Counted from the first letter of the stretch, positions 1,124 to 18,170 are shown. The stretch: 64,000 bases of DNA from an uncultured Elusimicrobia bacterium (GCA_964561135.1 CAZLOB010000070.1:3248-67247), one strand, 5' to 3'. The notes: generated from the sequence alone by a model not told the origin. Made by a program: numbers and translations.

Positions 1124-1180
1124 TAGTAATTAGAAGAGGAAAAAAATTTAGAAATTAGTTCTTTGTTAAAGTTTTGTTTC

Positions 1181-1256: not shown

Positions 1257-1339
1257 AGCAGGACACATATAACCCTATAGGCAGGTTGAAAGCCTATTTT
1301 TTTTAATTTGTGTCTGCTGGCCCGTAGAGAAGTTTTTTT
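1248..1339 (+). terminator. riboswitch expression-platform hairpin plus U7 (overlaps the P1 3' strand)
   Basis: ctacgggccagcaggacaca (1248-1267) pairs with tgtgtctgctggcccgtag (1309-1327): 19 bp with one bulge. tct/aga extends the stem. ttttttt at 1333-1339. Confidence 0.6.
1277..1304 (+). terminator. small hairpin plus U8 inside the platform loop (pause site or weak terminator)
   Basis: ataggc(1277-1282)/gcctat(1292-1297), 9-nt loop, followed by a T run to 1304. Confidence 0.3.
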
Positions 1340-1348
1340 GTTCTTGAA

Positions 1349-1412
1349 GGACCAGGGAACATACAGGTTCTGCGCATCTTACGAAAATGTTTGTTCCCTG
1401 GTCTTTTTTTTT
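1349..1412 (+). terminator. third leader hairpin plus U9
   Basis: ggaccagggaaca (1349-1361) pairs with tgttccctggtc (1392-1403), then nine T (1404-1412). The loop is large (~30 nt). It overlaps the ORF-track start at 1387. Confidence 0.45.
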
Positions 1413-1470
1413 ATATATATTGGTAATTTTGGCTACGAGAGCAATAAATCTTTTCTTTCTAGTTTATTTT

Positions 1471-4400: not shown

Positions 4401-7400
4401 TGGTGATGATGGTTTATTGTATAACAACACTAAAGAAGCATATTATATTGTAAAATATGCTACTTACCCTGTAAAAGAGTCTACAACCATATGGTGGCAA
4501 CAAGCAGTAGAATATGTTCAACAATGGAATGTTGCATCACAGGGGCTGAAAGAACAAAAAGTTTTACAAGGGTTCATCCCAGGAACAACTTATTATTTTG
4601 CTATAAAAACAGTTGATGATAGTAGGAATGTATCAGATATTGATATCAATGCACAAGATCTTTCAACACAAGCAAAAGCTTATGCACAAGTTGGTTCCAT
4701 TGGTTCTTTAATACGGATAAATGAAGTTGCACCTGACCAAACTTCTACTGCAGGATATGATTGGATTGAATTCTATAACGCGTCGACACAAGCAATAAAT
4801 GTTTTCGGATGGAAGATATATGAAGTGTATACGAGTTCAACAGAACCAATTGAAATAATAGAAGCAAATTGGTTCTTCCCAGCAAACAGTTATCTTGTGT
4901 TAAGATTTGGTCAACAACAAAGAAATATGACAGTGCCACAACAAATATCGCCAAATTGTTACGAACTTTATACAGATAAACCGGGCCTTGCCGCAACTGA
5001 TAACATTATAGTTTTAGCTGATAAAAATGACAATTGGATAGATGTTGTTTGTTATACAGATAGAAGTGGAAGTATATCAAATGCTACTCGGTTCCGACAA
5101 GCATACAACTATGCTGTTTCTATAAATGAATGGTATGGACCCTATGCAGATGAGACAAACGATGATGAAATAGAATACTGTTGTGCATCAACATTGTTTA
5201 TGTCATCAGACAGGTCTTTAGCACGGGATGAATCTTCAACCGACGGAACAAACCCGTCTGTTAACGAATGGTATTTAACTCTAACACTGACATGTGGTGC
5301 ACCTAATTCAGGTATAGACAAAATACCACCAGCCGCTGTTACAACACTACAAGCAACTGCTGGCCCTAACCGTGGACAAGTGAAACTTTCCTGGATATCA
5401 GTTGGTAATGATGATTATACAGGCACAGCAGCAGGATATATGTTAAGATTTAATACATTTCCTATTACAGAAGAAAACTTCTTTCATTCATCAACAAATG
5501 CTGACAGAATCTCAAAAGATAAAAAAACAGATACTATCTATATGAAACCAAAAATAGCTGGAAAAATTGAAACAACTGTCGGTGTATTACCTGTTGGACA
5601 AACTTATTATTTTGCATTAAAAGTATTAGATGAACGTGTTAACTTTTCAGCAATATCTAATGTAGTGTCTTTTGTCCCACCGAATGTTGTTGGGTCTAAT
5701 ATAAGAATAAACGAATTCGCAGTATTAGAATCAACACATACAGGTGGTGATTGGGTTGAGTTGTATAACGCGTCAGAAGATCCTGTTAACATTAAAGGGT
5801 GGACACTGTGGGGTATAAAAGTAGCAGAAACAACTCCGTCTAAGATAAAAAAGTTTCCTGATATTACCTTAGCTCCAAAAGATTATCTTGTGGTAAACTG
5901 TGTCTTGGGGACGGATGAAACAACTTCAAAAGGTGAAAATGGATATTGGGATGTGTACACAAATTATGATATAAAAGGGTTTGACGGTGTTTTATTTTTA
6001 ACTGATGAAGGTTTTAGTAGTGATTATGATAATATAGTAGATTTTGTAGCATATACATCTGGTGGTGTTTCCTCGTGGAAGGATATATGGAATACAGCAT
6101 GTGATTGTAATCAATGGTCACCATATATAAATACTGATGCTGAAGGTGTAAACTACGCAGTAGATTGGTCTTCAGGGCAAACAGGTTTCTCTTTAGGTCG
6201 GGATAGGTTTTCAACTGATAATGACAATATTCTCCATAATGCAAGAGATGATTGGAAATTATTTCGTGTTCCAACAAAAGGATATCAAAATGATGATATC
6301 CCACCTGCTGCTATTACTTATATTGTTGCAACTTATGGTGAAACAGAAGGTTCGATTAAACTTACATGGATAGTACCTGGTGATGATGAGTTCATTGGGG
6401 TAAATTATGGCAAGTATGAGATAAAATATGCTACATTTACAGTTGAAACTTCATCAACAGTATGGTGGCAACAGATTTCTAAAAGAAGTGAATACAGTGG
6501 GGTTGTTGAAGTTAAAATAGGTGTTGATATTTCAACAACGCAACCATATGAAACTGTAAGTTATACAATTACAAGATTGTTCCCAGGGTTAACTTACTAC
6601 TTTGGAATAAGGACATACGATGATATAGGAAATGTTTCTGAGTTAGATTTGTATTTATCAAACAACGAGCCTGTTTTTGCAGTAGCGTTTGATACAATAC
6701 CTGCAAAAGTTCAAAATCTTAATTTCTTTGTAAAAAACAAAACTATAGAATTTAGCTGGGATAAAAATAAAGAACTTGATTTTGACCGTTATGAGATATA
6801 CTGTGATTCAGGGGTGGGATTATTCTTTGTTAGTGCTACTACAAATACTTGGTTTGAACACAAAGGATTAAAAAATGGGCTAACCTACTATTATGAACTT
6901 TATGCAGTAGATATTAAACAAAACAAAAGTTTACCAACTTTTGGTTACACAATACCAAAAATGTCACCTCCGACAAAACTTTCTGCCGAACATTATGGTT
7001 GGTATGTAAATCTTGAATGGCAACATTCAGTAGATTATACTGCTGATAATTTCTTAATGTATAAAATATATCGTAGTAGTTCTCAACACGGTTCTTATGT
7101 AAGTATATCAACTACTACTAATAATTTTTATAAAGATAACAATATTCAAAAAGGCAGTTGTTATTACTATTATATTGTATGTGTAGATAATGATTACATT
7201 GAAAGCGAACTTTCAAACATTGCAGTAGCTGTACCTGATCTTATTTCGCCAAAATTTGTACATATTTCAAAACTAACTTCTCGTGATTTAGCTAAAGATA
7301 TTGCAAAAATTGACATTAAAGTTGTAGATGACAGGTTTGAAGAAGGAGATAGACAAGGTAAATTAGTTTCTTTAGAAGGAAAATATAAAGTTATTGGTTC

Positions 7401-7848
7401 TCAAGAAAAATATAGTGTAAAATTTGATCCAGATTTTATCGCAGGTTTAAAAGAATATACTGGTCAAGCAGAATTTGACTTCACTTTGATAACAATTGGT
7501 GATAAAGGTATAGAATATCAATTTATTGCAAAAGATGAAGTTAATATATCATCTTTTCCAATAGATGGAAGTTGGTATAAAGTTGAACTGCCTAAAGACC
7601 TACCTCAACAAAAGTTTATAACTGACCAAAACCCAGAGGTTGTTTTTGGTAGCAACGTTGAAGAAGTTATAATTTATGACCAATTTGGTAATAAAGTTTG
7701 GGGGAAAACTAAACAGTTTGAAAATCAACTGATAGTATGGAAAGGGAAAGATAAAAATGATAAAAATGTAGAATCAGGTACGTATATATATCAAATTAAA
7801 ACAAAAGATGGGAAACGTAAGTATGGTGTAGTGATTGTAGTGAAGTGA
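1471..7848 (+). CDS. giant secreted surface protein: CBM-like N-domain, FN3-like repeats, four lamin-tail-domain (LTD) modules, C-terminal FlgD-Ig/T9SS-CTD-like tail
   Basis: Track ORF 1387..7848. Start moved to ATG 1471 (MKIKVLLAFVLFFVSSSTSYTA signal-like). LTD motifs: ITEVLAND..EFVEVYN, INEFLYD..EWIELYN, RINEVAP..DWIEFYNAS, RINEFAV..DWVELYNAS. FN3-like YYFRVRAFN and YYFAIKTVDD. Tail ..GTYIYQIKTKDGKRKYGVVIVVK. Confidence 0.85.
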   Translation: MKIKVLLAFVLFFVSSSTSYTANLLNNAGFDELPALTGWTRSGTLSSGVVTSPVTNAPYAARISTSASTGNKALYQNVNVYEGKRYVLSGYVYLVVAQGGESVGLGLKPGGGGVASSWFPDVSNSTSATTQDRWVYLTLSTKVPFGVSTYGINVYLRTSGALSTWATGYFDDISFVFISSPPGKVTNFVAETGRVGGEINLSWVCATATIGYEDDLPPGCSFYIQYASWTGVNFSTLTLPNPPPGVYHIWIPTGPVVYGTNCYYTIAGLQEGVTYYFRIWVIDNSGNWSEISDSATTQAQITPQPPSNLDVFSISSSTIRLKWTPSNAVWYRIEHSSVSNSESWVFRSTVVAKAGEYIDDNLVPSCTYWYRMFGINSAGIVNWYQPSNIVKTITYPAAPINFTTQTISATSIVWIWEPIGYADGFIIYQATSPNTEVVKIPFGINTYEETGLSTNTAYGRYIRAFNSSGFSELSAKTTVYTLAATPVNLSFIAVHYTSVTFSWSANGNPLGTRYEVSQSIDNFQTNFSTPIPYTYETVVTISDLVPSTTYYFRVRAFNNDDVPTSFSIVINTTTLSLPPPDICITEVLANDSHSTEGPGEFVEVYNRGLVEVDLAGMFLCGEGDTNDNIVDYTGHNDLGQPGTILYPGWYALIVDPDYDGWYNDCIQQHADLNKLIMLTIHQDSTLGSSRLANTFESVWIVSGTVVLTSFTWVSDAGNGKSWEKIDYLGPAIDRSDSCNWAVSTHQSDNNSYCTPGFLNSVSGSGPPPLLPSQEDINPSDVVINEFLYDAVSTDNGNEWIELYNNLSTMSVNLAGWKIQKSTGPTLDVAVWTDLFVITSGSISPNGYFLCAQSTAAVKYQADFTYSDSATMNNSAPSAIRLVTPSGKEIDRVAYGGARSDNLAEADKATVGASVGQSLSRSPDGKDTNNNYNDFIMLSNPTPTNSSGPDKIPPASITDLAAETGQNPGEIILSWTAPGDDGLLYNNTKEAYYIVKYATYPVKESTTIWWQQAVEYVQQWNVASQGLKEQKVLQGFIPGTTYYFAIKTVDDSRNVSDIDINAQDLSTQAKAYAQVGSIGSLIRINEVAPDQTSTAGYDWIEFYNASTQAINVFGWKIYEVYTSSTEPIEIIEANWFFPANSYLVLRFGQQQRNMTVPQQISPNCYELYTDKPGLAATDNIIVLADKNDNWIDVVCYTDRSGSISNATRFRQAYNYAVSINEWYGPYADETNDDEIEYCCASTLFMSSDRSLARDESSTDGTNPSVNEWYLTLTLTCGAPNSGIDKIPPAAVTTLQATAGPNRGQVKLSWISVGNDDYTGTAAGYMLRFNTFPITEENFFHSSTNADRISKDKKTDTIYMKPKIAGKIETTVGVLPVGQTYYFALKVLDERVNFSAISNVVSFVPPNVVGSNIRINEFAVLESTHTGGDWVELYNASEDPVNIKGWTLWGIKVAETTPSKIKKFPDITLAPKDYLVVNCVLGTDETTSKGENGYWDVYTNYDIKGFDGVLFLTDEGFSSDYDNIVDFVAYTSGGVSSWKDIWNTACDCNQWSPYINTDAEGVNYAVDWSSGQTGFSLGRDRFSTDNDNILHNARDDWKLFRVPTKGYQNDDIPPAAITYIVATYGETEGSIKLTWIVPGDDEFIGVNYGKYEIKYATFTVETSSTVWWQQISKRSEYSGVVEVKIGVDISTTQPYETVSYTITRLFPGLTYYFGIRTYDDIGNVSELDLYLSNNEPVFAVAFDTIPAKVQNLNFFVKNKTIEFSWDKNKELDFDRYEIYCDSGVGLFFVSATTNTWFEHKGLKNGLTYYYELYAVDIKQNKSLPTFGYTIPKMSPPTKLSAEHYGWYVNLEWQHSVDYTADNFLMYKIYRSSSQHGSYVSISTTTNNFYKDNNIQKGSCYYYYIVCVDNDYIESELSNIAVAVPDLISPKFVHISKLTSRDLAKDIAKIDIKVVDDRFEEGDRQGKLVSLEGKYKVIGSQEKYSVKFDPDFIAGLKEYTGQAEFDFTLITIGDKGIEYQFIAKDEVNISSFPIDGSWYKVELPKDLPQQKFITDQNPEVVFGSNVEEVIIYDQFGNKVWGKTKQFENQLIVWKGKDKNDKNVESGTYIYQIKTKDGKRKYGVVIVVK

Positions 7849-7926: not shown

Positions 7927-8272
7927 TGAACAAAATAAATAATAAAGAATTAAATTTTGAGAATTTAGAAGTGTATCAAAATTACTAAAAATTTTCCTAA
8001 ACAAATACAATTTTCTTTAGCAGACCAATTAAGAAGAGCATCGTTGTCAATTTGTAATAACATTGCAAAAGGATGTGGCAACACACGATAAAAGAAAAGA
8101 ATTGTTTTACAATTACGTTTTAAACTCTGCAAGAGAATATTTCCCTGGTTTAGAAATTACTCTAAAACAAAATTTGATAACTAATAAAATATATTCAGGT
8201 TTAAGGGAGGAATGTTTGATTATTTGTAAAATGTTAAAAAAGTTAATTATCTCATTAGATAAAACTAGAATA
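7927..8272 (+). pseudogene. four-helix-bundle protein (23S rRNA IVS protein / Avd family), frameshifted
   Basis: Three frames together give MNKINNKELNFENLEVYQN / KNFPKQIQFSLADQLRRASLSICNNIAKGCGNT / DKRKELFYNYVLNSAREYFPGLEITLKQNLI..ECLIICKMLKKLIISL. This matches the family pattern LEVWQ..FPK.E.y.L..QLrRAa.SI..NIAEG. At least two frame breaks. Confidence 0.6.
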
Positions 8273-9235
8273 AAAAATTTGTGTTTTTTAATCTTCTTTA
8301 AACTTTTAACTTTTAACTTTCAACTAACAGAGGCAGCTTTTCAAAATACAGCATGGTCTGTTTCTGCAGAGAGTATGGGTGGTGTTGCTGTTGCTTACAG
8401 CAATGAACCGTTTGGCGTTTTTTATAATCCAGTAAATATTGTAAATGTTGAAACTAAAAGTTTACAAATTGCTTATTTAAAACCATATCTTGCTTTAGAA
8501 AATATTGATATAAATTTAAACACCATTGCTTTTGTGTTACCTAAAAAATATGTGTCTTTATCAGCAGCAGTTGGGATGTATAATGTGAACAATTTGTATT
8601 ATGAAACTACAACTATTTTTTCATTTAGTACAATATTGAAAAAATTTTTTGATAACTTACCATATATATCAATTGGGACAAATTTAAAATTTTTAACAAA
8701 AAGATATAAATTTGATGAAGGAATTTTAAACTATCAACCAGAACTAAAAAATAAAAATTCAACAACTGTTTTCTCAACAGATATCGGATTAATTACAAAA
8801 ATGCTAAAAGATAAACTTTCGTTAGGAATAGCAATAAAAGATGTTAACCAACCTAATGTGGCTGTAGTCTCATCTGAAGATATTGTTCCTTTGACAGTAA
8901 GTTTTGGTGGAACATATAATATTGGCGATATAAAAACAATACTATATTTTGAAGATTTTACTGTAGGGTGTGAACTAAGATATAGAAACCAAACATGGGG
9001 AACTACACAATCAAAACTTTTTTATGGGATAGGATTTCAAACTTATTTTAATTTTCATACAATAGCAATTCGTGCAGGAATAAATAAAGAATCTATAAAT
9101 TTTGGTTTTGGATATAATGGTATAAAACTTTCGCAAAAAATTCTTATGAATATTCAATACGGATTCGGTTTGTCAACAGTTGTTTTTGACAATTCTGCTG
9201 GTACACATAGGATCTCTTTTGAGATACAACTCTAA
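8231..9235 (+). CDS. predicted outer-membrane beta-barrel protein (FadL/PorV-like N-terminal motif)
   Basis: Track ORF 8063..9235, whose first ~56 codons are the four-helix-bundle remnant. ATG 8231 gives a signal-like MLKKLIISLDKTRIKNLCFLIFFKLLTFNFQLTEA. AESMGGVAVAYSNEPFGVFYNPVNI motif and alternating beta-strand pattern. Confidence 0.6.
   Translation: MLKKLIISLDKTRIKNLCFLIFFKLLTFNFQLTEAAFQNTAWSVSAESMGGVAVAYSNEPFGVFYNPVNIVNVETKSLQIAYLKPYLALENIDINLNTIAFVLPKKYVSLSAAVGMYNVNNLYYETTTIFSFSTILKKFFDNLPYISIGTNLKFLTKRYKFDEGILNYQPELKNKNSTTVFSTDIGLITKMLKDKLSLGIAIKDVNQPNVAVVSSEDIVPLTVSFGGTYNIGDIKTILYFEDFTVGCELRYRNQTWGTTQSKLFYGIGFQTYFNFHTIAIRAGINKESINFGFGYNGIKLSQKILMNIQYGFGLSTVVFDNSAGTHRISFEIQL
8296..8325 (-). 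repeat. AAGTTNA-type heptad array, inverted relative to 7859..7908
   Basis: ctttaaacttttaacttttaactttcaact is the reverse complement of agttgaaagttaaaagttaaaagtttaaag. Confidence 0.75.
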
Positions 9236-9335
9236 CAGAAGTCGATATTTGAATGTTGGCTTTTGGAGTGTTGTTATTAAACGGCTGCTCAAAAATAAAT
9301 TGTAAAGGCAGAAAATAAAAAATAATAAAGAAAGG

Positions 9336-10736
9336 TTGTATTATGTGATGTATACAATCGTATTTATTGTATTTTTAATACCTTCTTTTTTTTCATCTTT
9401 ACTATTATATTCACAGATAAATGTTTATTTTACTGACCCGTATAACGATGTCCCATCAATAAGTTTTCTTTCAACGGCGAAAAAACCTATTGATTTTGCA
9501 TTAAAAGATTTTATTGATTCTGTATCACCACAAACAACAATGTATGTTTGCATTTATGAAGTGAATAATACTACAATAACTACTGCGATAGATACCGCAG
9601 TGAACCGCAGGGTAAAAATTTATGCTATTTTTGGCAAAGATGTTTCAACATCTGTATTCAAAAGTAGTTTTGAATATAAAAAGATTGGTTTTTCATCACA
9701 AATTATGCATAATAAATTTGTTGTAGTAAAAAGTTCAAAGGTATGGACTGGTTCTTATAACTTCACAGTTTCAGCTACATATGACCAAGATAATTTTGCA
9801 TTAGAAATTTTTTCTAAAGAACTTGCAGAAATTTATGAAAAAGCATTTCTGTATATGTGGGATCATGGTAATGATATAACCATATCCACAAGGATTGCTG
9901 AGTTTAATAATAAATCTGTTGATTTTATTGACGGGACAAAAATTACTGTTTATTTTAATCCGTATTCACAAAATCCACAGTTAAAAAATGTTTTAATAGA
10001 CAACTGGTACGATGTTTTTGAAGAAAAACCAAAAATAAAAAATTTATATTTTACAGTTGCATGGTTTACTTTGGAAGATGTTAGTGATATCATTAAAATG
10101 TTAAGAGATAAAAATGTAGATATTTTTGGTATCATTGATGATGATAGCCAAAATTTTAGTATGTATCAAAAATTAAGAAATTATGGTATATCAATATATT
10201 TTGATGCAAGAAGAACTTTTTATGGTGAAGGGCTTATGCATCACAAGTACTGTGTTGTAGATCCGTTTACAAAAAATGCAAAAGTTATCTGTGGTTCTGC
10301 AAACTGGTCTGATGCAGCATTAACTTCAGAAAGTAATAAAAATTATGAAAACCTTCTTGTGATAGAATCACAAAAAATTGCAGAAGTGTTTTATAAAGAA
10401 TTTTTAAGGTTATACAACAAGACTGTTTCACAACAAGTTTCTACTTCTTTATCCGATGAGATGATTGAAAATATAATTTTTTATCCAAATCCTGTAAAAG
10501 AAAAACTTAATATAAAGTTTAAACCAAACTTCAGTGTTAAAGAAATAAAACTTTTAATAGTTTCGTTATACGGTGTAAAAATTTATGAAAAAAATTTAGA
10601 TTTTGTTTCTGGGATAGAAAACAAAATTGAAGTTGAGTTACCAAAAGATATTTCTTATGGATTATACAATATCATTCTTCGTGTTAAAGGTTTTAATGTT
10701 CAAAAAGATTATGTTAAGAAGATAGTTGTGAAGTGA
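9336..10736 (+). CDS. secreted phospholipase-D-superfamily (two HKD-like motifs, Nuc-like) protein with CTD-like tail
   Basis: MHNKFVVVKSSKVWTGSYNFT and HHKYCVVDP..VICGSANWSDAAL. N-terminal hydrophobic segment. C-terminal IIFYPNPVKEKLNIKF...YVKKIVVK. The start could be ATG 9348. Confidence 0.75.
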   Translation: MYYVMYTIVFIVFLIPSFFSSLLLYSQINVYFTDPYNDVPSISFLSTAKKPIDFALKDFIDSVSPQTTMYVCIYEVNNTTITTAIDTAVNRRVKIYAIFGKDVSTSVFKSSFEYKKIGFSSQIMHNKFVVVKSSKVWTGSYNFTVSATYDQDNFALEIFSKELAEIYEKAFLYMWDHGNDITISTRIAEFNNKSVDFIDGTKITVYFNPYSQNPQLKNVLIDNWYDVFEEKPKIKNLYFTVAWFTLEDVSDIIKMLRDKNVDIFGIIDDDSQNFSMYQKLRNYGISIYFDARRTFYGEGLMHHKYCVVDPFTKNAKVICGSANWSDAALTSESNKNYENLLVIESQKIAEVFYKEFLRLYNKTVSQQVSTSLSDEMIENIIFYPNPVKEKLNIKFKPNFSVKEIKLLIVSLYGVKIYEKNLDFVSGIENKIEVELPKDISYGLYNIILRVKGFNVQKDYVKKIVVK

Positions 10737-11716
10737 GTAGGTATAAAAACAACAGTGGACAGCAGGTTGTGAAAATAAAAAAACAAAAAAATATTTTCGT
10801 TATTCTATTTAAGTATTGTAGAAACTTTTTGTTATTTATTACACACTGTTTTCATTTTGTACTTTTTTCCTACATGCTACTTACTATATACTTTCTTGTT
10901 TTCTTTTCACCTGCTTATGGTTTTCTCTTTGAGCCATACTTCCTTGCATATTCAGCAGAAGAGACAGTTTATATGCAAGCATTAAAAGTTTTGTCTGAAG
11001 GAAAAGAATCAGCTGGGAACAACCCTGCAGGTTGCGCTCTTGAAAATAAAAAATCTGTTTCTTTTGGATTCACAAGTTTGAATTTAAAAGATAATTTATC
11101 AAGTATAAAATTGTTTTTGCCCAAAAAGATTGCTAATTTAGTGATATCTTTGAAACATGCAAACTTTGGTGAGACAGAGTTTGTTTCAGAAAATTTTGAT
11201 GTAAAAAAAGATAGATTGTATTCTTTAATTTTAAATACATCTTTAGGTAAAGAAATGTTTATACCAGGACTGTTTTTAGGGATTGATTTAAATTTTGGTA
11301 ATATGAAACTTGATGAAACAATACAAACATTTGGTACTTTGTGTGGAACAAGATATATGATAAATTTTGGTTCGATAGAACTTCATCTTGGATCAATTTT
11401 TGGTTCATATTTTGCTAAAAATGAGAATCTATTTTTTTATGCATTTGGTATAAAATATTATCTTCCTGAATACAAAAGTTTTTTATCTTTAGCTTATAAC
11501 AAAAATGTTTATGAATTTTTAACTATAACATTTGAAATGGACTTGATAAAAAATTTCTTGTTAATTATTGGATATGAAGCTTTTAGCCGACAATTAAATG
11601 TCAGCTATTCTTTAGGTGGGGAATTTAAGATAAAAAATTTTGAGTTCATTTTATCAACAAGATATAATATAAATTTATATCCTACACTAAGTTTATCAAT
11701 AAGTTATTCATTATGA
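10733..11716 (+). CDS. predicted outer-membrane beta-barrel protein
   Basis: ORF track. Internal ATG 10874 gives MLLTIYFLVFFSPAYG signal-like start. NNPAGCAL motif. Amphipathic strand pattern to the C-terminus (LSLSISYSL). Start uncertain. Confidence 0.5.
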   Translation: MSRYKNNSGQQVVKIKKQKNIFVILFKYCRNFLLFITHCFHFVLFSYMLLTIYFLVFFSPAYGFLFEPYFLAYSAEETVYMQALKVLSEGKESAGNNPAGCALENKKSVSFGFTSLNLKDNLSSIKLFLPKKIANLVISLKHANFGETEFVSENFDVKKDRLYSLILNTSLGKEMFIPGLFLGIDLNFGNMKLDETIQTFGTLCGTRYMINFGSIELHLGSIFGSYFAKNENLFFYAFGIKYYLPEYKSFLSLAYNKNVYEFLTITFEMDLIKNFLLIIGYEAFSRQLNVSYSLGGEFKIKNFEFILSTRYNINLYPTLSLSISYSL

Positions 11717-12735
11717 ATAAAAAATTCTTTTTTATTTTATTTTTTTTAATTTTCCCATTTATCGTTCACTCTTTACCACCATTAATAATAACAGAAGTTG
11801 CACCAGGTGAAGCATCAACAAAAGATTGGATTGAAATTTTTGTTTCTTCTTCAGGTAATTATAACGGATATAAAATCTACAGTGGTTATCCAAAAAGAGT
11901 AATAAAAATCTTACCTTCAAGAGAATATAAAAGAGGTGATATCATAGTAATCATGATGAACACTTCTTTAGAAGATGCGCAAACAAAACAAAATTATTGG
12001 ATATTTTATTCTACTGATACAACAGGGCTTTATGATTCTGAGGGTTTTGTGTATATTACTACTCCTTATGACAACTGGATCGATGCAGTTGGTTGGTCAA
12101 ACAGGGATGGTTCTATAGCAAAAGATGCAATAGACGCTTATAACGAAATGAAACAAAACAATATGTGGAAAGAAGGTCCTCAAGTCGCTGACGGGAATAA
12201 CGATGTTGAAGTACAGAACTCTTTGGTTGACTGGTCATTAGGTGCAAAAACAGATGCTGCGTCTATACAAAGACGGAAAGATTTTTTTGGCTTACCAATG
12301 GATGCTGACTCAATCTATGATTGGTATTATTCAAAAATAGCAACTTTTGGATACGGATATAAAGAAGTTGTTTCAGAAACACAAAAAATAGTTGAAGTTG
12401 ATAAAAACACAAATCCGTTTTGTCCTGAGGATATAAACAATAGTTTTGTGAAAATAAATTTTAATATAGAAGATTTTGATGCAAAAAAAACTATAGTTAT
12501 TTACGATATCACAGGCAAAGAAATTATAAAACTATTAGATAAAGATAGATTACCCAATGGCGACCTTTCAACATATTCTTCAGTGAGGGCAGGAAGTATA
12601 ACTTGGGATGGTAGAGATTCATCCTCTAAACGTGTTCCAACTGGTGTATATATTGTATATTTTGAAGCGTATAATCCTACAAATGGTAAAAGATACATTA
12701 GTAAAGATGTTGTTATTGTAGGGAGGAAGTGGTGA
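11713..12735 (+). CDS. secreted lamin-tail-domain protein with FlgD-Ig/CTD-like tail
   Basis: Signal peptide MNKKFFFILFFLIFPFIVHS. LIITEVAPGEASTKDWIEIFVSS and NWIDAVGWSNRDGS match LTD modules 3 and 4 of the giant protein. Tail TIVIYDITGKEI..GVYIVYFEA..DVVIVGRKW. Confidence 0.75.
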   Translation: MNKKFFFILFFLIFPFIVHSLPPLIITEVAPGEASTKDWIEIFVSSSGNYNGYKIYSGYPKRVIKILPSREYKRGDIIVIMMNTSLEDAQTKQNYWIFYSTDTTGLYDSEGFVYITTPYDNWIDAVGWSNRDGSIAKDAIDAYNEMKQNNMWKEGPQVADGNNDVEVQNSLVDWSLGAKTDAASIQRRKDFFGLPMDADSIYDWYYSKIATFGYGYKEVVSETQKIVEVDKNTNPFCPEDINNSFVKINFNIEDFDAKKTIVIYDITGKEIIKLLDKDRLPNGDLSTYSSVRAGSITWDGRDSSSKRVPTGVYIVYFEAYNPTNGKRYISKDVVIVGRKW

Positions 12736-12920: not shown

Positions 12921-14375
12921 ATGAACTTTAAACTAATTTATATCTACATATTTATACATTTACTTATTCACACATTTACTACTTATCTTTATCCTTTATT
13001 TGAAGAAAAAGATCTTTTTGCAAACACTGCAGCGTTATGTAATGCGTATACAGCTGCTGATGACAATGTTGTTTGTGTATATTATAACCCAGCAGGTATT
13101 TTCAATATACCAAAAGGTGGTTTCTATTTTTCAAATACAAAATTTTATAGTATTGACGAACTTGCATCAAATACAATATCTGTTTCTTTAGATGTTAAAC
13201 ATTTTGGCAAAGTTGGTTTTTTGTATAATATTTTTGGTTTTGATTTGTATAAAGAAAACTTATTAAAATTTGTTTATGCGAACAGTATTTTAAGAAAGAT
13301 TTCGTTTGGTATAGGAATTAATTCTTTATCTGTGAATATAAAAAACTATGGTTCTAAAAGTTTCCTAAGTATTGATTTAGGTGTTTTAGCAGAAGTTACA
13401 AGAAGTTTTCTTTTAGGATTTTATATAAAAAATTTTGATATACCAAAAGTTGCTGAAGATGAAATTGTTACACATACACTTGTTACAGGAGCGAAAATTG
13501 CTCCTTTAAAAGATGTGTCAACATATATTGATGTTGTAAAAAAAACAGAACAAGATGTTTTTGCAAGAATTGGCGAAGAAATAAAACTTAATATAATAGA
13601 TAGTTTGATAACAATATTTCGTTGTGGTGTTGAAATAGCAACAAAGGTCAAACCTGCAAAATATGCGGTTGGTTTCGGGTTAGGATATAAAATAGGTTCT
13701 TCAGAAATTATAATTGATTATTCTTATTTGTTACACACAATTTTAGGTAGCCAATATCTTGTTTCTTTAAGCATAAGTTTTGGTAAAAAAGAAAAAGAGT
13801 TTTTTGAAGAAATAAAACCTACAGGACAAAAAAGAAAAGCAGCGGTCAAAAAAATAGAACTTCAACCAAAATCTATAAATATTAATACTGCAACTATAGA
13901 AGAACTTGCAGAACTGCCTGGTATTGGTCCATCAACTGCACAAAAAATTGTTGAATATAGACAAAAGATAGGAAAATTTATTTCTGTTGAACAGCTGCTT
14001 GAGGTACCTCGTATCGGTACTCTTACGCTACAAAGAATAAAACCATATATAACTGTTGAAGTAGAAGAAAAACAAATACAAGAAGTAAAACCAGAAGTTG
14101 AAAAGAAACAAAAAGAAGAACAGTTGTTTATTCCACCACTTGATCTACCATCACAAGAAAAAATAGAAGTAAAAGAAGAAAAACAAAAGTTTAATTTGAA
14201 TACTATAACAGAGGAAGAGTTAATTAATTTAGGTTTCTCTTCAACTGCTGCAAAAAATGTTATAAGATATAGAATAAAAGTTGGTAAATTTAAATCAGTT
14301 GATGAACTATATAAAATACCATTTGTTGAGAAATCGTTGGTTGATAAACTTAAAGAAAAGTTTTATGTTGAATAA
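12921..14375 (+). CDS. outer-membrane beta-barrel (FadL/PorV-like motif) fused to two ComEA-type helix-hairpin-helix DNA-binding modules
   Basis: N-terminal half: NAYTAADDNVVCVYYNPAGIFNI plus strand pattern. C-terminal half: NINTATIEELAELPGIGPSTAQKIVEYRQKIGKFISVEQLLEVPRIG and LNTITEEELINLGFSSTAAKNVIRYRIKVGKFKSVDELYKIP, separated by K/E-rich linkers. Confidence 0.75.
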   Translation: MNFKLIYIYIFIHLLIHTFTTYLYPLFEEKDLFANTAALCNAYTAADDNVVCVYYNPAGIFNIPKGGFYFSNTKFYSIDELASNTISVSLDVKHFGKVGFLYNIFGFDLYKENLLKFVYANSILRKISFGIGINSLSVNIKNYGSKSFLSIDLGVLAEVTRSFLLGFYIKNFDIPKVAEDEIVTHTLVTGAKIAPLKDVSTYIDVVKKTEQDVFARIGEEIKLNIIDSLITIFRCGVEIATKVKPAKYAVGFGLGYKIGSSEIIIDYSYLLHTILGSQYLVSLSISFGKKEKEFFEEIKPTGQKRKAAVKKIELQPKSININTATIEELAELPGIGPSTAQKIVEYRQKIGKFISVEQLLEVPRIGTLTLQRIKPYITVEVEEKQIQEVKPEVEKKQKEEQLFIPPLDLPSQEKIEVKEEKQKFNLNTITEEELINLGFSSTAAKNVIRYRIKVGKFKSVDELYKIPFVEKSLVDKLKEKFYVE

Positions 14376-14378
14376 ATA

Positions 14379-16598
14379 ATGGTTGTAATATTATTCTTAA
14401 TTTCAATTTTTTGTTTTCAAAACTTATTCTGTGTAGAATTCAAACTTAATTCTTCAACACATACAACAGAAAAATTTTTGTCTGAAGAAGAACAAACATT
14501 AGAAGAATTATATGAAGAAATTGATAAAATAGAAGAAGAAACAGTTAGTGTTTATTTTCAAGAAGAGATACATTTATATCAAGAAGATGAAGGTTTTTTA
14601 GAATCATTACAGCAAAACCCGTTGGATTTGAACACTGCAACTTATCTTCAACTTAAATCTCTTCCTGGTATAACTGATGAGTTAGCACGGAAAATTGTCC
14701 GTTATAGAAGGTTAAATCCGTTTAAATCAAAATCTGAACTTAAAAAAATTGTTGATGCAGAGGTTTATAATAAAATATCACCTTTTGTTATTGTAGATAA
14801 AGTAAAAAAAGCAGCACAACTTAACGGACAAGTAAGAATAAGATTTTATCCTGAAGAAAAGACAGAAATTAAAACATATTATCAACCTAAAGAAAAGTTT
14901 GAACAACCATATTATTTTTACAATAGGACACAACTTTCTTATGGTGATAAACTTTCGTTAGGATATGTTTTTTTACATAAACCTAATGAAAACGTCCCTT
15001 CTTTAGAAAGTTTCAGTTATCTACTTCGTAAATGGTGGGTAAGGTTAAACTCAATAGGTCTGTTCGATAAAATAATTTTTGGTAATTACAAAGCAGGGTT
15101 TGGTTATGGTATGGTGTTTCACGAGAACGCTGCTGTATCAAATTTAGTAGGTTCTGTTAAACCGAAGATGCGTGGGTTAAGAGAAGATAAAAGTACTGCG
15201 GATAATGCATATCTTTATGGTTTGGGTTTTGAAAGTAATATAGGTAATCTTGAATATTCCATTTTTTATTCGCAGAAAGATTTGATCACAAAAACAACTG
15301 TGTTTACAGAAGTTGTTCAAACAGATGAAGAAGAGCAAACAATTGTTTCTTCCTATACAATTGACGATTTAATTGACATTCGTAACGACTATGTTGAATA
15401 TGATAAATATTTGTTAGATTATGATGTAAACATAGAAACATCAACAATTAACAAACTGCCAAAAAGAAAAGTTCAAGAACAACTTGTAGGAATAAATTTT
15501 TTGTTCCCAATAGATGTATTTAAAATAGGTTTTTGTGGGTATTATGCAAGATATGACAACCCTTTTGATCCTGATAAAACAAAAGTTTCTGGCTATGATC
15601 TTGTAGACAAGTATTCAGAACGATGGAGGTATGTTTATCGCGGGGATAACTTAGTAGTAGGAAGTTTATATTTTGAGTTTCCTTTAGATAAACTTATATT
15701 TTTTAGTGAATTAGCACAAAGTAAAGCATATTTTTCACAACAGTCAACTTCTACATTTTCTTCACAACTTGGTAGTGGAGTAAACCTGGGTATTCTTTTA
15801 TTTTTAAGTCGAACAAAGTTTTATTTGTTATACACATATCTTGAACCAACTTTTTATTCACCATTAGGTATACCAATAAAAATTTATGATTATCCTAACA
15901 GTCAACGAGGTATAAAAATTGGTAATAGTTATAAATTCAAAAATGGTGAGATAAACTTTTCATATGGTACAGCTGAATTATTTAAAGGTATCTGGAGTGG
16001 ACATTGGAGTTCTGAACAACCACGGTTCCCATCAAGATATAACGAAATTTTTTTTGAAACAAAATATAAAGTTTTTAAAGATATTGAACTTTATTTCAGA
16101 ACAATAGATGATTTAAGAGAAAGATACATAGACTTAAAAACTTATGGTCTTTCATTAGAACAGCAACTTGTTCAAACACAACAGTTAAGGATAAAAAATA
16201 GGTATCAAGTGTCAACAAGTATATTAAAAGACACAATATTAAAGATAAGATATGACCATCAATGGCAAAAGTTTATAGATTACGGAAAATCATATTATGG
16301 TGAACAACTTTGTGCTGAACTAAAATATAAATTTTGGGGTTTTACAATAAACAGCAGATTCTGTATTTTTAATTCTGATGAACAAGTATATTTAAGTTAT
16401 CTTGAGCCAAAATGGTATAACTTGTATATGTTAGAAACTGAAGAAAATGCTGGGGGAGATAAATTTTATTTTACTTTTTCATACAAAATTTCAAAAAATA
16501 AAATTTTGTGGCTCAGGTATAGATATAAGTTTTATACAACAAAAGTTGTTGATCCGACAGATACTGAATTTAGAATACAAATAGATTATGGGTTTTGA
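14379..16598 (+). CDS. ComEA-type HhH module fused to a large predicted outer-membrane beta-barrel
   Basis: Signal-like N-terminus, acidic stretch, LDLNTATYLQLKSLPGITDELARKIVRYRRLNPFKSKSELKKIV, then ~600 aa of Y/G/F-rich alternating sequence ending ..EFRIQIDYGF (terminal aromatic residue). Confidence 0.7.
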   Translation: MVVILFLISIFCFQNLFCVEFKLNSSTHTTEKFLSEEEQTLEELYEEIDKIEEETVSVYFQEEIHLYQEDEGFLESLQQNPLDLNTATYLQLKSLPGITDELARKIVRYRRLNPFKSKSELKKIVDAEVYNKISPFVIVDKVKKAAQLNGQVRIRFYPEEKTEIKTYYQPKEKFEQPYYFYNRTQLSYGDKLSLGYVFLHKPNENVPSLESFSYLLRKWWVRLNSIGLFDKIIFGNYKAGFGYGMVFHENAAVSNLVGSVKPKMRGLREDKSTADNAYLYGLGFESNIGNLEYSIFYSQKDLITKTTVFTEVVQTDEEEQTIVSSYTIDDLIDIRNDYVEYDKYLLDYDVNIETSTINKLPKRKVQEQLVGINFLFPIDVFKIGFCGYYARYDNPFDPDKTKVSGYDLVDKYSERWRYVYRGDNLVVGSLYFEFPLDKLIFFSELAQSKAYFSQQSTSTFSSQLGSGVNLGILLFLSRTKFYLLYTYLEPTFYSPLGIPIKIYDYPNSQRGIKIGNSYKFKNGEINFSYGTAELFKGIWSGHWSSEQPRFPSRYNEIFFETKYKVFKDIELYFRTIDDLRERYIDLKTYGLSLEQQLVQTQQLRIKNRYQVSTSILKDTILKIRYDHQWQKFIDYGKSYYGEQLCAELKYKFWGFTINSRFCIFNSDEQVYLSYLEPKWYNLYMLETEENAGGDKFYFTFSYKISKNKILWLRYRYKFYTTKVVDPTDTEFRIQIDYGF

Positions 16599-16844: not shown

Positions 16845-17339
16845 ATGATAAAAAAATCTAAAGGTTTTACTTTGATAGAATTAATGGTAGTAGTTGTTAT
16901 ACTTGGTATACTTGCGGTAGTTGTTGCGCCGAGAATCCCTGACCTTGTCAAAAAAGCAAAAGAAGGTGCTACAAAAGGTTCTCTCTCTACACTCAGGTCT
17001 ACTTTGAACATATATTATAGTGATACTGAAGGATTTTATCCAGCAACTCATTGGAGTAAGGATGATGCTGCGGATGGATATAAAGATGTTAGTAATGTTC
17101 TTCACGAATCTTTAGTGCCAAAATATATAAAAGCAATACCTATGGTTAAATTACCTACTGCTCATAAGGACGATTCTGATAGAGTAATTGTATACAAAAA
17201 TCTTCCTTCAACTCTTACAGATGAAGATTTGGGCTATGGTTGGGGATATGGTTCCGTATATGGGACTGAGACATATGGAAATATAATTGTTAACTGTATA
17301 CATACAGATACTAGTGAGAAATATTGGTATGAATATTGA
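16845..17339 (+). CDS. type IV pilin / pseudopilin with prepilin N-terminal methylation motif
   Basis: MIKKSKGFTLIELMVVVVILGILAVVVAP. Strong SD aggagg 16830-16835. Confidence 0.9.
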   Translation: MIKKSKGFTLIELMVVVVILGILAVVVAPRIPDLVKKAKEGATKGSLSTLRSTLNIYYSDTEGFYPATHWSKDDAADGYKDVSNVLHESLVPKYIKAIPMVKLPTAHKDDSDRVIVYKNLPSTLTDEDLGYGWGYGSVYGTETYGNIIVNCIHTDTSEKYWYEY

Positions 17340-17408: not shown

Positions 17409-18170
17409 ATGTTTTTATTCTTAGTATTTATATTAGGTCTTATCTTTGGTAGTTTTGCAAATGTTTTAATTTATAGGATACCGCGCAAAATTTCTATCCT
17501 TTATCCAAATTCGTTTTGTCCACATTGTGGCTCATCTATAGTTTGGTATGATAATATACCACTATTAAGCTATATTTTTCTTTCTGGTAGATGTAGGATT
17601 TGTAATAAAAAAATTTCTTTACAATATCCCATTGTTGAACTTTTATGTGCAATTTTATCTGTGTTTGCATATTTGAAATTTGGTATTGATAAAATGTGGA
17701 TTTTTTTTAATTTATTTTTTATTCTTTTGGTTATAAGTGTTATTGATATTCAAACTACAGAGATACCTAATGTATTATCTTTTTATCTAATAATTTCTGG
17801 AATATTTTTTTCAATTTTTAATCCAGCCTTAGGTAAAAAAGTTTTGATAGGAGATACTATGTATATAAGATTAGTAAACTCGTTGATAGGTGGAATCTTT
17901 GGATTTGTAATTTTTTTCTCAATACAACTTTTAGGAGACAAAATTTTTAAGAGACCTATTTTAGGTGGTGGCGATGTAAAACTTTTAAGTGGTATTGGTA
18001 CATATTTAGGTGTTCAATCGTTGTTGAAAATTATATTTTTTTCATCGTTAGTAGGGACAATTTATGTGTTTATTTTAAGCATTGTAAAGAAAAGAAAACT
18101 TTTTGGCGAGTACATCCAGTTTGCACCGTTTATTTCTATTGGTTGTCTAATATATGTATTCTTACTTTAA
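17409..18170 (+). CDS. pilD: prepilin peptidase (A24 family)
   Basis: Cys-rich N-terminal CPHCGS..CRICNK, multiple TM segments, GGGDVKLL motif. Confidence 0.88.
   Translation: MFLFLVFILGLIFGSFANVLIYRIPRKISILYPNSFCPHCGSSIVWYDNIPLLSYIFLSGRCRICNKKISLQYPIVELLCAILSVFAYLKFGIDKMWIFFNLFFILLVISVIDIQTTEIPNVLSFYLIISGIFFSIFNPALGKKVLIGDTMYIRLVNSLIGGIFGFVIFFSIQLLGDKIFKRPILGGGDVKLLSGIGTYLGVQSLLKIIFFSSLVGTIYVFILSIVKKRKLFGEYIQFAPFISIGCLIYVFLL

What the first reader, a model, noticed from the sequence alone, without database searches (positions are those of the whole stretch)
12921..16598. ComEA-type DNA-binding modules fused to predicted outer-membrane barrels (two adjacent genes)
Gene 12921 has an N-terminal barrel-like half and then two HhH modules (about 13876-14050 and 14193-14372) separated by K/E-rich spacers. 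Gene 14379 has a signal peptide, an acidic stretch, one HhH module (about 14620-14800) and then ~600 aa of barrel-like sequence ending in DYGF. In characterised systems ComEA is a soluble or inner-membrane-anchored periplasmic protein. Covalent fusion to outer-membrane barrels would place a DNA-binding ratchet at the outer membrane, or make the barrel a DNA conduit or receptor.
Basis: partly seen in the sequence, partly recalled or inferred. Interest (0 to 1): 0.7.

Follow-up and report, generated by a model that had tools for sequence, protein, structure and literature searches.

The report
Outer-membrane barrels fused to ComEA domains
Two adjacent genes of an Endomicrobiia bacterium really do join ComEA-type DNA-binding modules to predicted outer-membrane beta-barrels, inside a conserved locus with a secreted nuclease, which makes them a candidate for the unknown way these bacteria get DNA across their outer membrane.

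Summary
Gene A (12921-14375) is a signal peptide, a 14-strand PorV/FadL-like barrel, and two HHH_3/ComEA modules on K/E-rich disordered linkers. Gene B (14379-16598) is a signal peptide, an acidic stretch, one HHH_3 module and a barrel of about 26-28 strands ending in DYGF.

The barrels are confident AlphaFold2 models. By the usual topology of outer-membrane proteins, all three HhH modules should face the periplasm.

Neither fusion is unique. A profile of the gene B barrel without any HhH finds 238 cluster representatives, and most carry one or two N-terminal HhH modules. Members occur in Endomicrobiia and many Bacteroidales. A small barrel followed by a large HhH-barrel is conserved from Endomicrobiia to Paludibacteraceae.

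In Endomicrobiia the pair sits in a conserved run of same-strand genes. These encode a giant LTD/FN3 surface protein, a PLD (NucT-like) nuclease, further PorV-like barrels, a pilin and a prepilin peptidase. ComEC lies 16 kb downstream.

The best reading is an outer-membrane DNA capture and import module with ComEA-like ratchets tethered to the outer membrane. Function is inferred, not shown. No characterised member of either family was found. I rate it a new variant of a known kind, of moderately high interest.

The parts
12921..14375 (+). Gene A, 484 aa: signal peptide, PorV/FadL-like 14-strand barrel, two ComEA-type HhH modules on disordered K/E-rich linkers
   Evidence: ORF. Pfam and NCBIfam. 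AF2 mean pLDDT 79.7. Foldseek top hit 8gl6_F, PorV.
13116..13781 (+). Gene A barrel, aa 66-287, 14 beta-strands. It is preceded by an N-terminal segment (aa about 27-65) that contains the NPAG motif and fits a FadL/PorV-type hatch. The last strand ends ...SLSISF.
   Evidence: AF2 DSSP, pLDDT about 90. Foldseek PorV, FadL, TodX, OmpG. Weak NCBIfam PorV/PorQ hit, E 5e-7. Sequence.
13872..14054 (+). Gene A HhH module 1, aa 318-378, with canonical LPGIGPSTAQKIV and VPRIGTLTLQRI hairpins
   Evidence: HHH_3 aa 318-378. TIGR00426. PDB ComEA 8dss E 8e-21. Sequence.
14193..14372 (+). Gene A HhH module 2, aa 425-484. It is more degenerate: GFS replaces GIG and the second hairpin has no glycine.
   Evidence: Second HHH_3 stretch. 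The tandem aligns with EEPD1 9yi2 over aa 318-483, E 2e-29. Sequence.
14379..16598 (+). Gene B, 739 aa: signal peptide, acidic stretch, one HhH module, large C-terminal barrel ending DYGF
   Evidence: ORF. Pfam. AF2 pTM 0.75. Foldseek.
14616..14786 (+). Gene B HhH module, aa 80-136. The first hairpin, LPGITDELARKIV, is intact and the second is degenerate.
   Evidence: HHH_3 E 5e-12. Sequence.
14820..16592 (+). Gene B barrel, aa 148-738. About 28 DSSP strands, so the barrel is probably 26-28 strands. No Pfam, NCBIfam or PDB sequence relative.
   Evidence: AF2. Foldseek gives only generic large barrels, TM at most 0.46. No PDB sequence hit at E up to 10. The profile finds 238 cluster representatives.
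9336..10736 (+). Context: secreted PLD-family (NucT-like) nuclease with two HxK/HKD halves and a T9SS-type C-terminal domain (CTD)
   Evidence: PLDc_2 x2 E 4.6e-31, Por_Secre_tail 26.2 bits. NucT NF010492 E 1.3e-12. HKD motifs. Conserved synteny.
10733..11716 (+). Context: third PorV/FadL-like barrel paralogue. Its start overlaps the end of the nuclease gene.
   Evidence: hhalign against the gene A family: probability 96.8%, E 2.4e-10, full length.
11713..12735 (+). Context: secreted protein with a conserved N-domain and a T9SS/FlgD-Ig-like CTD. In distant Endomicrobiia it is fused to the PLD nuclease.
   Evidence: Alignment A8. Weak NCBIfam PorZ and PorU C-terminal hits. PLD fusion in L005 and L006. 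LTD identity of the N-domain not confirmed.
8063..9235 (+). Context: PorV-like barrel paralogue 1
   Evidence: NCBIfam PorV_fam E 9e-8. hhalign against the gene A family: probability 99.8%, E 1.2e-30.
1387..7848 (+). Context: giant surface protein, 2153 aa as listed, with 4 Lamin Tail Domains, 3 FN3 domains and a CHU_C-type CTD. The true start is probably the Met at nt 1471.
   Evidence: Pfam. N-terminus. CTD conserved in orthologues. Synteny.
1164..1270 (+). Context: purine (guanine-type) riboswitch aptamer in the leader of the giant gene. Seen only in this window, not in the relatives examined.
   Evidence: Rfam RF00167, 54.1 bits against 37. Absent in L001, L002, L004-L006 and L082. L002 and L004 start inside the giant gene and L001 has no giant homologue, so the informative absences are L005, L006 and L082. 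Fold.
16845..17339 (+). Context: type IV pilin or pseudopilin directly downstream of gene B
   Evidence: N_methyl E 9.5e-10. GspG, PilA and ComGC N-terminal hits. Conserved position in L001, L002, L004, L081 and L082.
17409..18170 (+). Context: prepilin peptidase (PilD)
   Evidence: A24_N_bact and Peptidase_A24. Conserved position.
32486..34666 (+). Context: ComEC, the inner-membrane DNA channel with a metallo-beta-lactamase domain, 16 kb downstream
   Evidence: Pfam Competence E 1.9e-58 and Lactamase_B.

Best explanation
Genes A and B encode two subunits of an outer-membrane module that handles extracellular DNA. Gene B provides a large monomeric barrel of about 26-28 strands. Gene A provides a small PorV/FadL-like 14-strand barrel.

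Both carry ComEA-type HhH modules that should lie on the periplasmic side: one at the N-terminus of B and two on long flexible tethers at the C-terminus of A.

Proposed sequence of events (inferred):
1. Surface proteins of the same locus, namely the giant LTD/FN3 protein and the CTD-bearing protein encoded at 11713, hold DNA at the cell surface.
2. The secreted PLD/NucT-like nuclease cuts it.
3. A DNA end or fragment passes the outer membrane, most plausibly through the gene B barrel.
4. The tethered HhH modules bind it non-specifically at the periplasmic mouth and prevent back-sliding, as soluble ComEA does in Vibrio.
5. The DNA is handed to ComEC for import, for recombination and/or as a nucleotide source.

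Shown here: the domain architecture, the predicted barrel folds, the family distribution, the conserved synteny and the tight gene coupling. Inferred: sidedness, DNA binding, the conduit role of gene B, an A-B complex, and the end use of the DNA.
For: Architecture:
- HHH_3 and ComEA-repeat matches lie above curated cut-offs, and the modules match solved ComEA structures.
- Both barrels are confidently predicted, with outer-membrane-only structural neighbours.
- Both barrels end in an aromatic residue: gene A ...SISF, then the linker; gene B ...DYGF.

Coupling of A and B:
- The gap is 3 nt here. In relatives the genes overlap or abut.
- The pair is older than Endomicrobiia. In 29 of 72 Bacteroidales loci a barrel gene of about 274 aa sits directly upstream of the HhH-large-barrel gene. 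That small barrel is homologous to the gene A barrel: disjoint profiles give probability 99.3%, E 2.5e-20.

HhH is integral to the gene B family:
- A barrel-only profile finds 238 representatives.
- 56 of 70 sampled carry HHH_3.
- Of 133 full-length members, 92 have one module, 12 have two and 29 have none. The modules are always N-terminal.

DNA context in Endomicrobiia:
- The conserved gene order is DUF192, LTD giant, PorV-like barrel, PLD nuclease, barrel, CTD protein, A, B, pilin, PilD.
- In distant members the nuclease is fused to the CTD protein directly upstream of A and B.
- ComEC and RecA are in the window.

Literature:
- Soluble periplasmic ComEA promotes DNA uptake into the periplasm in V. 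cholerae (PMC3879209, abstract).
[quoted passage not shown] - LTD domains accompany extracellular nucleases (PMC6085458 and PMC8289736).
- Barrel-based outer-membrane DNA uptake and utilisation loci with secreted nucleases exist in Bacteroidota (PMC12478041 and PMC8459023).
Against: - There are no experimental data for any member of either family.
- Sidedness is inferred only from the general rule that termini and extra domains of outer-membrane barrels are periplasmic. Model coordinates and PAE were not available, so I cannot say whether the gene B HhH hangs below the barrel or plugs it, nor whether the lumen is open.
- Two of the three HhH modules have degenerate second hairpins.
- In Bacteroidales the HhH-barrel gene is not next to nucleases or competence genes. 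Its neighbours are DUF4294, lgt, ychF and a rhamnosidase.
- 43 of 72 Bacteroidales loci lack the small barrel within 10 kb.
- P. gingivalis already has an ordinary anchored ComEA that is essential for competence, so the barrel family is not simply 'the ComEA' of Bacteroidales.
- Some Endomicrobiia gene B orthologues have no HhH at all.
- Whether this genome also has a secretin or a canonical ComEA elsewhere is unknown.
Confidence: 0.5

Rival explanations
1. DNA utilisation only. The locus is a nutrient-scavenging device, a functional analogue of the Bacteroidales ddb loci. Surface nuclease products (oligonucleotides) enter through the barrels, the HhH modules retain them in the periplasm for further breakdown, and the purpose is purine, phosphate or carbon supply rather than genetic transformation.
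For: - A purine riboswitch heads the locus in this window.
- A secreted PLD/NucT-like nuclease is the most constant partner and is even fused to the CTD protein in L005 and L006.
- ddbABCDEF shows that a nuclease-plus-barrel locus can serve DNA catabolism, and that it is related to a transformation system.
- From memory, not checked here: H. pylori NucT is reported to serve purine salvage.
Against: - The riboswitch is absent from the relatives whose upstream region could be checked: L005, L006 and L082.
- The window carries a purL-like gene, so de novo purine synthesis is at least partly present.
- ComEC, RecA, a pilin and PilD are present.
- HhH/ComEA modules bind long duplex DNA rather than short oligonucleotides (established knowledge).
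- This rival differs from the best explanation only in the end use of the DNA.
Confidence: 0.2
2. Secretion and anchoring device for CTD proteins. Gene B acts as a small SprA-like translocon and gene A, with its two paralogues, as PorV-like shuttles or anchors. These export and hold the three CTD-bearing proteins (LTD giant, PLD nuclease, protein 11713) on the surface. The HhH modules are structural or regulatory, not the DNA path.
For: - The best structural match of gene A is PorV bound to a substrate CTD (8gl6_F).
- The locus has three PorV-like paralogues, each directly downstream of a protein with a T9SS-type CTD.
- Each of the three CTD classes is conserved among its own orthologues and only weakly similar to the other classes.
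- HhH-like folds also occur in non-DNA roles, seen here as T2SSK and PsbU hits.
Against: - The A-barrel plus B pair also occurs in Paludibacteraceae with no CTD protein or nuclease among the recurrent neighbours.
- Most gene B relatives keep one or two ComEA-type modules, which a pure protein translocon would not need.
- L005 and L006 have two CTD proteins but only one PorV-like barrel.
- Gene B has no detectable similarity to SprA. Foldseek hits are generic.
- No other T9SS component was seen in the window.
Confidence: 0.15
3. Surface-exposed DNA receptors. The HhH modules are displayed outside the cell, as in autotransporter-like export, and act as adhesins for extracellular DNA in biofilm matrix or as the first DNA receptor.
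For:
- Long flexible linkers would suit display.
- The locus is otherwise rich in surface proteins.
Against: - Known outer-membrane barrels with an even strand number have both termini in the periplasm (established knowledge).
- Gene A has 14 strands, and gene B is not an autotransporter-type 12-strand barrel.
- Gene B's HhH follows the signal peptide directly, like the periplasmic N-terminal domains of other outer-membrane proteins.
Confidence: 0.1

Closest known systems
ComEA / ComE1 (V. cholerae, B. subtilis, T. thermophilus): periplasmic or membrane-anchored competence DNA receptor
   Same: The same HHH_3-type double helix-hairpin-helix module. The same expected compartment, the periplasm. 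The same genomic company, ComEC and a pilin with PilD. The likely mode of action is the same: non-specific duplex binding that biases DNA inward.
   Different: Here the module is covalently joined to outer-membrane beta-barrels instead of being soluble or anchored in the inner membrane. There is no SLBB or oligomerisation domain. The full-length ComEA model TIGR01259 is not reached (101 and 24 bits against 152). The modules are split over two proteins, and two of the three are partly degenerate.
PorV (T9SS) and the FadL/TodX family of 14-strand outer-membrane barrels
   Same: The gene A barrel is a 14-strand barrel with an N-terminal NPAG-containing segment. Its best structural match is PorV in the substrate-bound T9SS complex (TM 0.60 normalised to the target), followed by FadL and TodX. 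It sits next to proteins with T9SS-type CTDs.
   Different: It falls below the NCBIfam PorV/PorQ cut-off (29.5 bits against 90). It carries about 200 extra C-terminal residues with two HhH modules. Elusimicrobiota are not known to have a T9SS (from memory), and none was seen here.
DdbC-DdbD of Bacteroides (ddbABCDEF) and RA0C_RS04915/04920 of Riemerella anatipestifer: barrel-based outer-membrane DNA uptake and utilisation
   Same: A locus that combines secreted nucleases, surface DNA-binding proteins and an outer-membrane barrel, without a secretin. It is linked both to DNA catabolism and to natural transformation.
   Different: Those barrels are TonB-dependent transporters with a carboxypeptidase-regulatory domain and a DUF5689 lid. 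Gene B shows no Plug, TonB_dep_Rec or CarboxypepD_reg match and only generic fold similarity. The Ddb proteins carry no HhH. The nucleases are of different families.
PilQ secretin with a type IV competence pilus
   Same: The proposed job is the same: passage of DNA through the outer membrane to ComEA and ComEC. A pilin and a prepilin peptidase lie directly downstream of gene B.
   Different: Gene B is a monomeric beta-barrel, not a multimeric secretin, and has no Secretin domain hit. A barrel of 26-28 strands could pass a DNA duplex but not a pilus (inference from known barrel sizes).
OmpA-type architecture (barrel plus periplasmic domain)
   Same: An outer-membrane barrel whose last strand ends in an aromatic residue, followed by a linker and a soluble periplasmic domain (gene A).
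   Different: The periplasmic domain binds DNA (predicted) rather than peptidoglycan. The barrel has 14 strands, not 8.

Membership tests
ComEA (HHH_3 / TIGR00426 repeat region) | Double helix-hairpin-helix module matching PF12836 / TIGR00426 above the curated cut-off | tested here: met
   Gene A: HHH_3 125 bits against 27, TIGR00426 95 bits against 53.1. Gene B: HHH_3 46.2 bits against 27. PDB ComEA 8dss E 8e-21.
ComEA (full-length protein, TIGR01259) | Whole-protein match to the comEA model, i.e. small protein with N-terminal anchor or SLBB plus C-terminal HhH | tested here: not met
   Gene A 101.1 bits and gene B 24.2 bits against a cut-off of 152.35. No SLBB domain. The rest of each protein is a beta-barrel.
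ComEA | Non-specific dsDNA binding and a requirement for DNA uptake | not testable with these tools
   Needs EMSA and genetics. Only context supports it.
ComEA | Located in the periplasm or outer face of the cytoplasmic membrane | tested here: inconclusive
   Signal peptides and an even-stranded barrel imply periplasmic termini by the general rule. No coordinates or topology experiment.
PorV/PorQ (NF033709) | Sequence match above the curated cut-off | tested here: not met
   Gene A 29.5 bits against 90 (E 5e-7). Paralogue 8063-9235: 32 bits against 90.
PorV / FadL fold | 14-strand barrel with an N-terminal hatch segment | tested here: met
   AF2: 14 strands at aa 66-287, pLDDT about 90. Foldseek: 8gl6_F E 1.2e-9, TMt 0.60; FadL 3pgu E 4.8e-9. 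NPAG motif in the alignments.
PorV (functional) | Works with a T9SS translocon (SprA) and binds cargo CTDs | not tested
   CTD-bearing neighbours exist. No T9SS core gene is in the window.
TonB-dependent transporter | 22-strand barrel with an N-terminal plug domain and a TonB box (PF07715 / PF00593) | tested here: not met
   No Plug or TonB_dep_Rec Pfam hit in gene B. Foldseek TM at most 0.46 to OprC and BtuB. About 28 strands. A TonB-box-like E-T-V-x-V string at aa 58-63 was judged by eye only.
Secretin (PilQ / GspD) | Secretin C-domain (PF00263) with N-domains; multimeric channel | tested here: not met
   No such Pfam or NCBIfam hit in genes A or B or in the annotated ORFs of the window.
Ddb / R. 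anatipestifer outer-membrane DNA transporter | CarboxypepD_reg-TBDT barrel paired with a DUF5689 protein | tested here: not met
   Neither domain is found in the locus. Features taken from PMC12478041 and PMC8459023.

The most novel reading that the evidence does not exclude
The small PorV-like barrel and the large HhH-barrel form a previously unrecognised, secretin-independent outer-membrane DNA translocon with built-in, outer-membrane-tethered ComEA ratchets. It would be conserved from Endomicrobiia to Bacteroidales. It would supply the missing outer-membrane step of DNA uptake in diderm bacteria that lack a complete type IV pilus and PilQ machine.
Probability: 0.3. Interest if true: 0.85.

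Novelty: new variant of a known kind. Interest (0 to 1): 0.65.

Why it matters
How DNA crosses the outer membrane is understood only for secretin and type IV pilus systems. A TonB-type system in Bacteroidota has recently been proposed as well.

For Endomicrobium the question is stated as open in the literature. These bacteria keep and express comEC, comF and dprA, together with an unexplained pilD and pilins, yet have no complete pilus machine (PMC8809381). For P. gingivalis the entry route to the periplasm is also called unclear (PMC11532111).

A conserved pair of outer-membrane barrels with ComEA modules attached, placed between a secreted nuclease and a pilin with PilD, gives concrete genes to test. 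If confirmed, it would add a new kind of outer-membrane DNA gate and a new way of deploying ComEA, tethered at the outer membrane.

It would also assign a role to a widespread family of about 680-residue proteins in gut Bacteroidales (hundreds of 50%-identity cluster representatives), currently annotated only as 'helix-hairpin-helix domain' proteins.

Tried and rejected
1. Is the protein at 11713-12735 an LTD protein? Its N-terminus looks LTD-like by eye (LPPLIITEVAP...DWIEIF). hhalign against an LTD of the giant protein gave probability 0.85%, and a PDB profile search gave nothing useful. I do not call it LTD.

2. Is the purine riboswitch a conserved regulator of the locus? It is present in the window. 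It is absent at the gathering threshold from L001, L002 and L004-L006, and at E up to 1 from the equivalent spacer of L082. L002 and L004 start inside the giant gene and L001 lacks a giant homologue, so only L005, L006 and L082 are informative. It is a lineage-specific addition and cannot carry the functional argument.

3. Is there genetic evidence from P. gingivalis? The 'ComEA' essential for competence (PGN_0421) was located by the published primers in a metagenome contig, at L090 877-1581. It is a 234-aa protein with an N-terminal hydrophobic anchor, not a barrel fusion. This lead is rejected.

4. Is the R. anatipestifer HhH protein RA0C_RS02645 a family member? Its length and sequence could not be obtained from the paper or its supplements. 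Unresolved.

5. Does gene B have a specific structural relative? Foldseek gives only generic large barrels and the PDB sequence search gives nothing.

6. Do Bacteroidales neighbours of the HhH-barrel gene point to DNA? They do not. The recurrent neighbours are DUF4294, lgt, ychF, a rhamnosidase and a radical SAM protein.

7. A first hhalign of the Bacteroidales small barrel against the gene A family shared three sequences between the two profiles. I discarded it and repeated it with disjoint sets.

8. The genome scan with the very diverse alignment A5 failed for lack of a conserved stretch. A1 was used instead.

Full report
**What is there**

The window has about 28% G+C. Its proteins have their closest named relatives in Endomicrobiia, phylum Elusimicrobiota. 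The two ORFs of the finding are real: gene A at 12921-14375 (484 aa) and gene B at 14379-16598 (739 aa). Both are on the + strand and three bases apart.

- Gene A has two HHH_3 modules (E 1.2e-36), at aa 318-378 and about aa 425-484.
- Gene B has one, at aa 80-136 (E 5e-12).
- Gene A passes the NCBIfam model for the ComEA helix-hairpin-helix repeat region, 95 bits against 53.
- The gene A family profile matches solved ComEA structures (8dss E 8e-21, 2duy E 1e-12). The tandem of two modules aligns with human EEPD1.
- The spacers are K/E-rich (46-48%). The gene B N-terminal stretch is 34% D+E. Gene B ends in DYGF.
- Only the first module of gene A has two canonical glycine hairpins. The other two modules have a degenerate second hairpin.

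**The barrels**

AlphaFold2 was run with family alignments.

Gene A (mean pLDDT 80, barrel about 90) has:
- a signal-peptide helix;
- an N-terminal segment with short helices;
- 14 strands at aa 66-287;
- two disordered linkers, at aa 291-314 and 382-420;
- two helical HhH domains.

Foldseek against the PDB puts PorV first, as chain F of the substrate-bound type 9 secretion complex 8gl6 (E 1.2e-9, TM 0.60 on the target). FadL, TodX and OmpG follow.

Gene B (pTM 0.75) has a signal peptide, a disordered acidic stretch, the HhH domain, and then about 28 strands from aa 148 to the last residue. It resembles only large barrels in general: TonB-dependent transporters, MtrB and the FimD usher, with TM at most 0.46. 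It has no Pfam, NCBIfam or PDB sequence relative.

Neither is met.

**Which side?**

I could not inspect coordinates. Bacterial outer-membrane barrels with an even strand number have both termini in the periplasm (established knowledge). On that rule:
- the two modules after the last strand of gene A (which ends ...SISF) should be periplasmic;
- the module between the signal peptide and the first strand of gene B should also be periplasmic.

The gene A linkers, of about 25 and 45 disordered residues, would let the modules reach several nanometres below the outer membrane. This is inference.

**How widespread**

A profile built from the barrel only was scored against 1.84 billion cluster representatives. 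It used the window barrel plus six orthologues that lack HhH.
- It found 238 proteins at E up to 1e-3.
- Of 70 sampled, 56 carry HHH_3.
- Of 133 full-length members, 92 have one module, 12 have two and 29 have none. The modules are always N-terminal.
- 89 of the 133 end in F, W or Y.

A scan of one genome per species found the family in Endomicrobiia. At 20-26% identity it also found it in many Bacteroidales: Paludibacteraceae, Bacteroidaceae and Prevotellaceae, including Phocaeicola barnesiae DSM 18169 and Paraprevotella xylaniphila YIT 11841.

The gene B architecture is therefore old and common, though unnamed. The gene A fusion (PorV-like barrel plus HhH) is essentially confined to Endomicrobiia, with a few distant metagenomic relatives.

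**A conserved pair**

In 29 of 72 Bacteroidales loci, mostly Paludibacteraceae, a gene for a protein of about 274 aa lies directly upstream of the HhH-barrel gene on the same strand. The protein has a signal peptide and an aromatic C-terminus.

A profile of these proteins matches the Endomicrobiia gene A barrel over its full length: probability 99.3%, E 2.5e-20, with no sequence shared between the two profiles. 'Small PorV-like barrel, then large HhH-barrel' is thus a two-gene unit that predates the split of these lineages. Endomicrobiia added HhH modules to the small partner. In Endomicrobiia the two genes abut or overlap, as expected for co-produced subunits.

**The locus**

In Endomicrobiia the pair lies in a conserved same-strand run:
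- DUF192;
- a giant surface protein with four Lamin Tail Domains, FN3 domains and a CHU_C-type C-terminal domain (CTD);
- a PorV-like barrel;
- a secreted PLD-family nuclease with both catalytic HxK motifs and a Por_Secre_tail;
- another barrel;
- a secreted protein with a conserved N-domain and a T9SS/FlgD-Ig-like CTD;
- gene A and gene B;
- a type IV pilin and a prepilin peptidase.

The two extra barrels are paralogues of the gene A barrel, with hhalign probabilities of 99.8% and 96.8%. In the window, each of the three PorV-like barrels follows a CTD-bearing protein. The three CTD classes are each conserved among orthologues.

In two distant Endomicrobiia the nuclease is fused to the CTD protein immediately upstream of genes A and B. 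There, gene A has one HhH and gene B has none. The nuclease and the barrel pair are therefore the constant core.

ComEC lies at 32486-34666 and RecA at 55028-56092. No secretin was seen among the ORFs annotated.

**Explanation**

The most economical reading is an outer-membrane DNA capture and import module.
1. Surface proteins and the nuclease engage and cut extracellular DNA.
2. DNA passes the outer membrane, most plausibly through the large gene B barrel.
3. Three tethered ComEA-type modules at the periplasmic face bind it and bias it inward.
4. ComEC then takes over.

A barrel of 26-28 strands is of the size class of LptD and the ushers. It could admit a 2-nm duplex but not a pilus (inference). 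The pilin and PilD next door may contribute a short pseudopilus.

Whether the DNA ends up as genetic material or as food is open. Both uses are documented for the related concept in Bacteroidota: ddbABCDEF and the R. anatipestifer transformation genes. I put 0.5 on this mechanism as a whole. Confidence in the architecture itself is much higher.

**Rivals**

- Pure nutrient scavenging differs only in end use. It is favoured by the riboswitch, but the riboswitch is not conserved.
- A PorV-type secretion or anchoring device for the CTD proteins fits the PorV similarity and the barrel-CTD pairing. It does not explain why most gene B relatives keep ComEA modules. Nor does it explain why the pair exists in Paludibacteraceae without such neighbours.
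- Surface display of the HhH modules contradicts the usual topology rule.

**Comparison with the literature**

- Soluble periplasmic ComEA drives uptake in V. cholerae (PMC3879209).
- For Endomicrobium endosymbionts, the authors list conserved, expressed comEC, comF, comM, dprA and recA. They state that the outer-membrane route is unclear and that retained pilD and pilins are puzzling (PMC8809381). The pair described here lies directly upstream of exactly those two genes.
- For P. gingivalis the entry route to the periplasm is also called unclear. Its essential ComEA proved to be an ordinary 234-aa anchored protein. No published genetics yet bears on the barrel family.
- I found no paper describing a ComEA module fused to an outer-membrane barrel. 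The library searched is not complete.

**Verdict**

It is a new variant of a known kind: ComEA-type DNA receptors in an uncharacterised architecture anchored in the outer membrane, paired with an uncharacterised large barrel. It is testable and bears on an explicitly open question.

Noticed in passing
window 1164-1412 (+): A purine riboswitch aptamer (RF00167, 54 bits; C at the specificity position, so guanine-type) sits in the leader of the giant LTD surface-protein gene, an unusual target. The 3' half of P1 is also part of a long alternative hairpin (1244-1331, about -45 kcal/mol) followed by U7, which resembles ON-type (pbuE-like) switches. A second strong hairpin with U9 follows at 1346-1412. 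No match was found in relatives L005, L006 and L082.
   Followed up: partly
window 1387-12735 (+): There are three successive pairs of 'secreted protein with a T9SS-type C-terminal domain, then PorV/FadL-like barrel' (giant/8063, PLD nuclease/10733, 11713/gene A), in a phylum not known for type 9 secretion. Each CTD class is conserved among orthologues. This could mean dedicated barrel anchors for CTD proteins.
   Followed up: partly
window 14550-14567 (gene B aa 58-63) and alignment A1: The acidic N-terminal stretch of Endomicrobiia gene B orthologues keeps an E-[TS]-[VT]-x-[TV] string (EETVSV here) that looks like a TonB box. This was judged by eye only, and no TonB gene was looked for.
   Followed up: partly
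L005 6494-8467 and L006 7255-9225: In distant Endomicrobiia the PLD nuclease and the CTD protein are one 657-aa polypeptide directly upstream of genes A and B. There, gene A has one HhH and gene B has none.
   Followed up: yes
window 584-1003 (+): A DUF192 gene lies upstream of the giant gene in the window, L005, L006 and L082/L083. It may belong to the locus.
   Followed up: no
window 18136-18720 (-): A conserved 194-aa ORF with a lipoprotein-like N-terminus (LSNC) and no family match lies on the opposite strand. It overlaps the end of the prepilin peptidase gene and is conserved in L001, L002 and L081.
   Followed up: no
window 29062-34666 (+): ComEC (32486-34666) overlaps the end of the DNA polymerase III alpha gene (29062-32514) by 29 nt, which suggests co-transcription.
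   Followed up: no
L007-L080 (Bacteroidales): The HhH-large-barrel gene of Bacteroidales is often next to a divergently oriented DUF4294 gene (33 loci). In 43 of 72 loci no small barrel partner lies within 10 kb.
   Followed up: partly
L090 877-1581: P. gingivalis comEA (PGN_0421), located by the published deletion primers, encodes 234 aa with an N-terminal hydrophobic anchor and extra C-terminal sequence after the HhH domain. An OMP-like 260-aa ORF ending ...DISF lies 2.8 kb downstream (4365-5147).
   Followed up: partly
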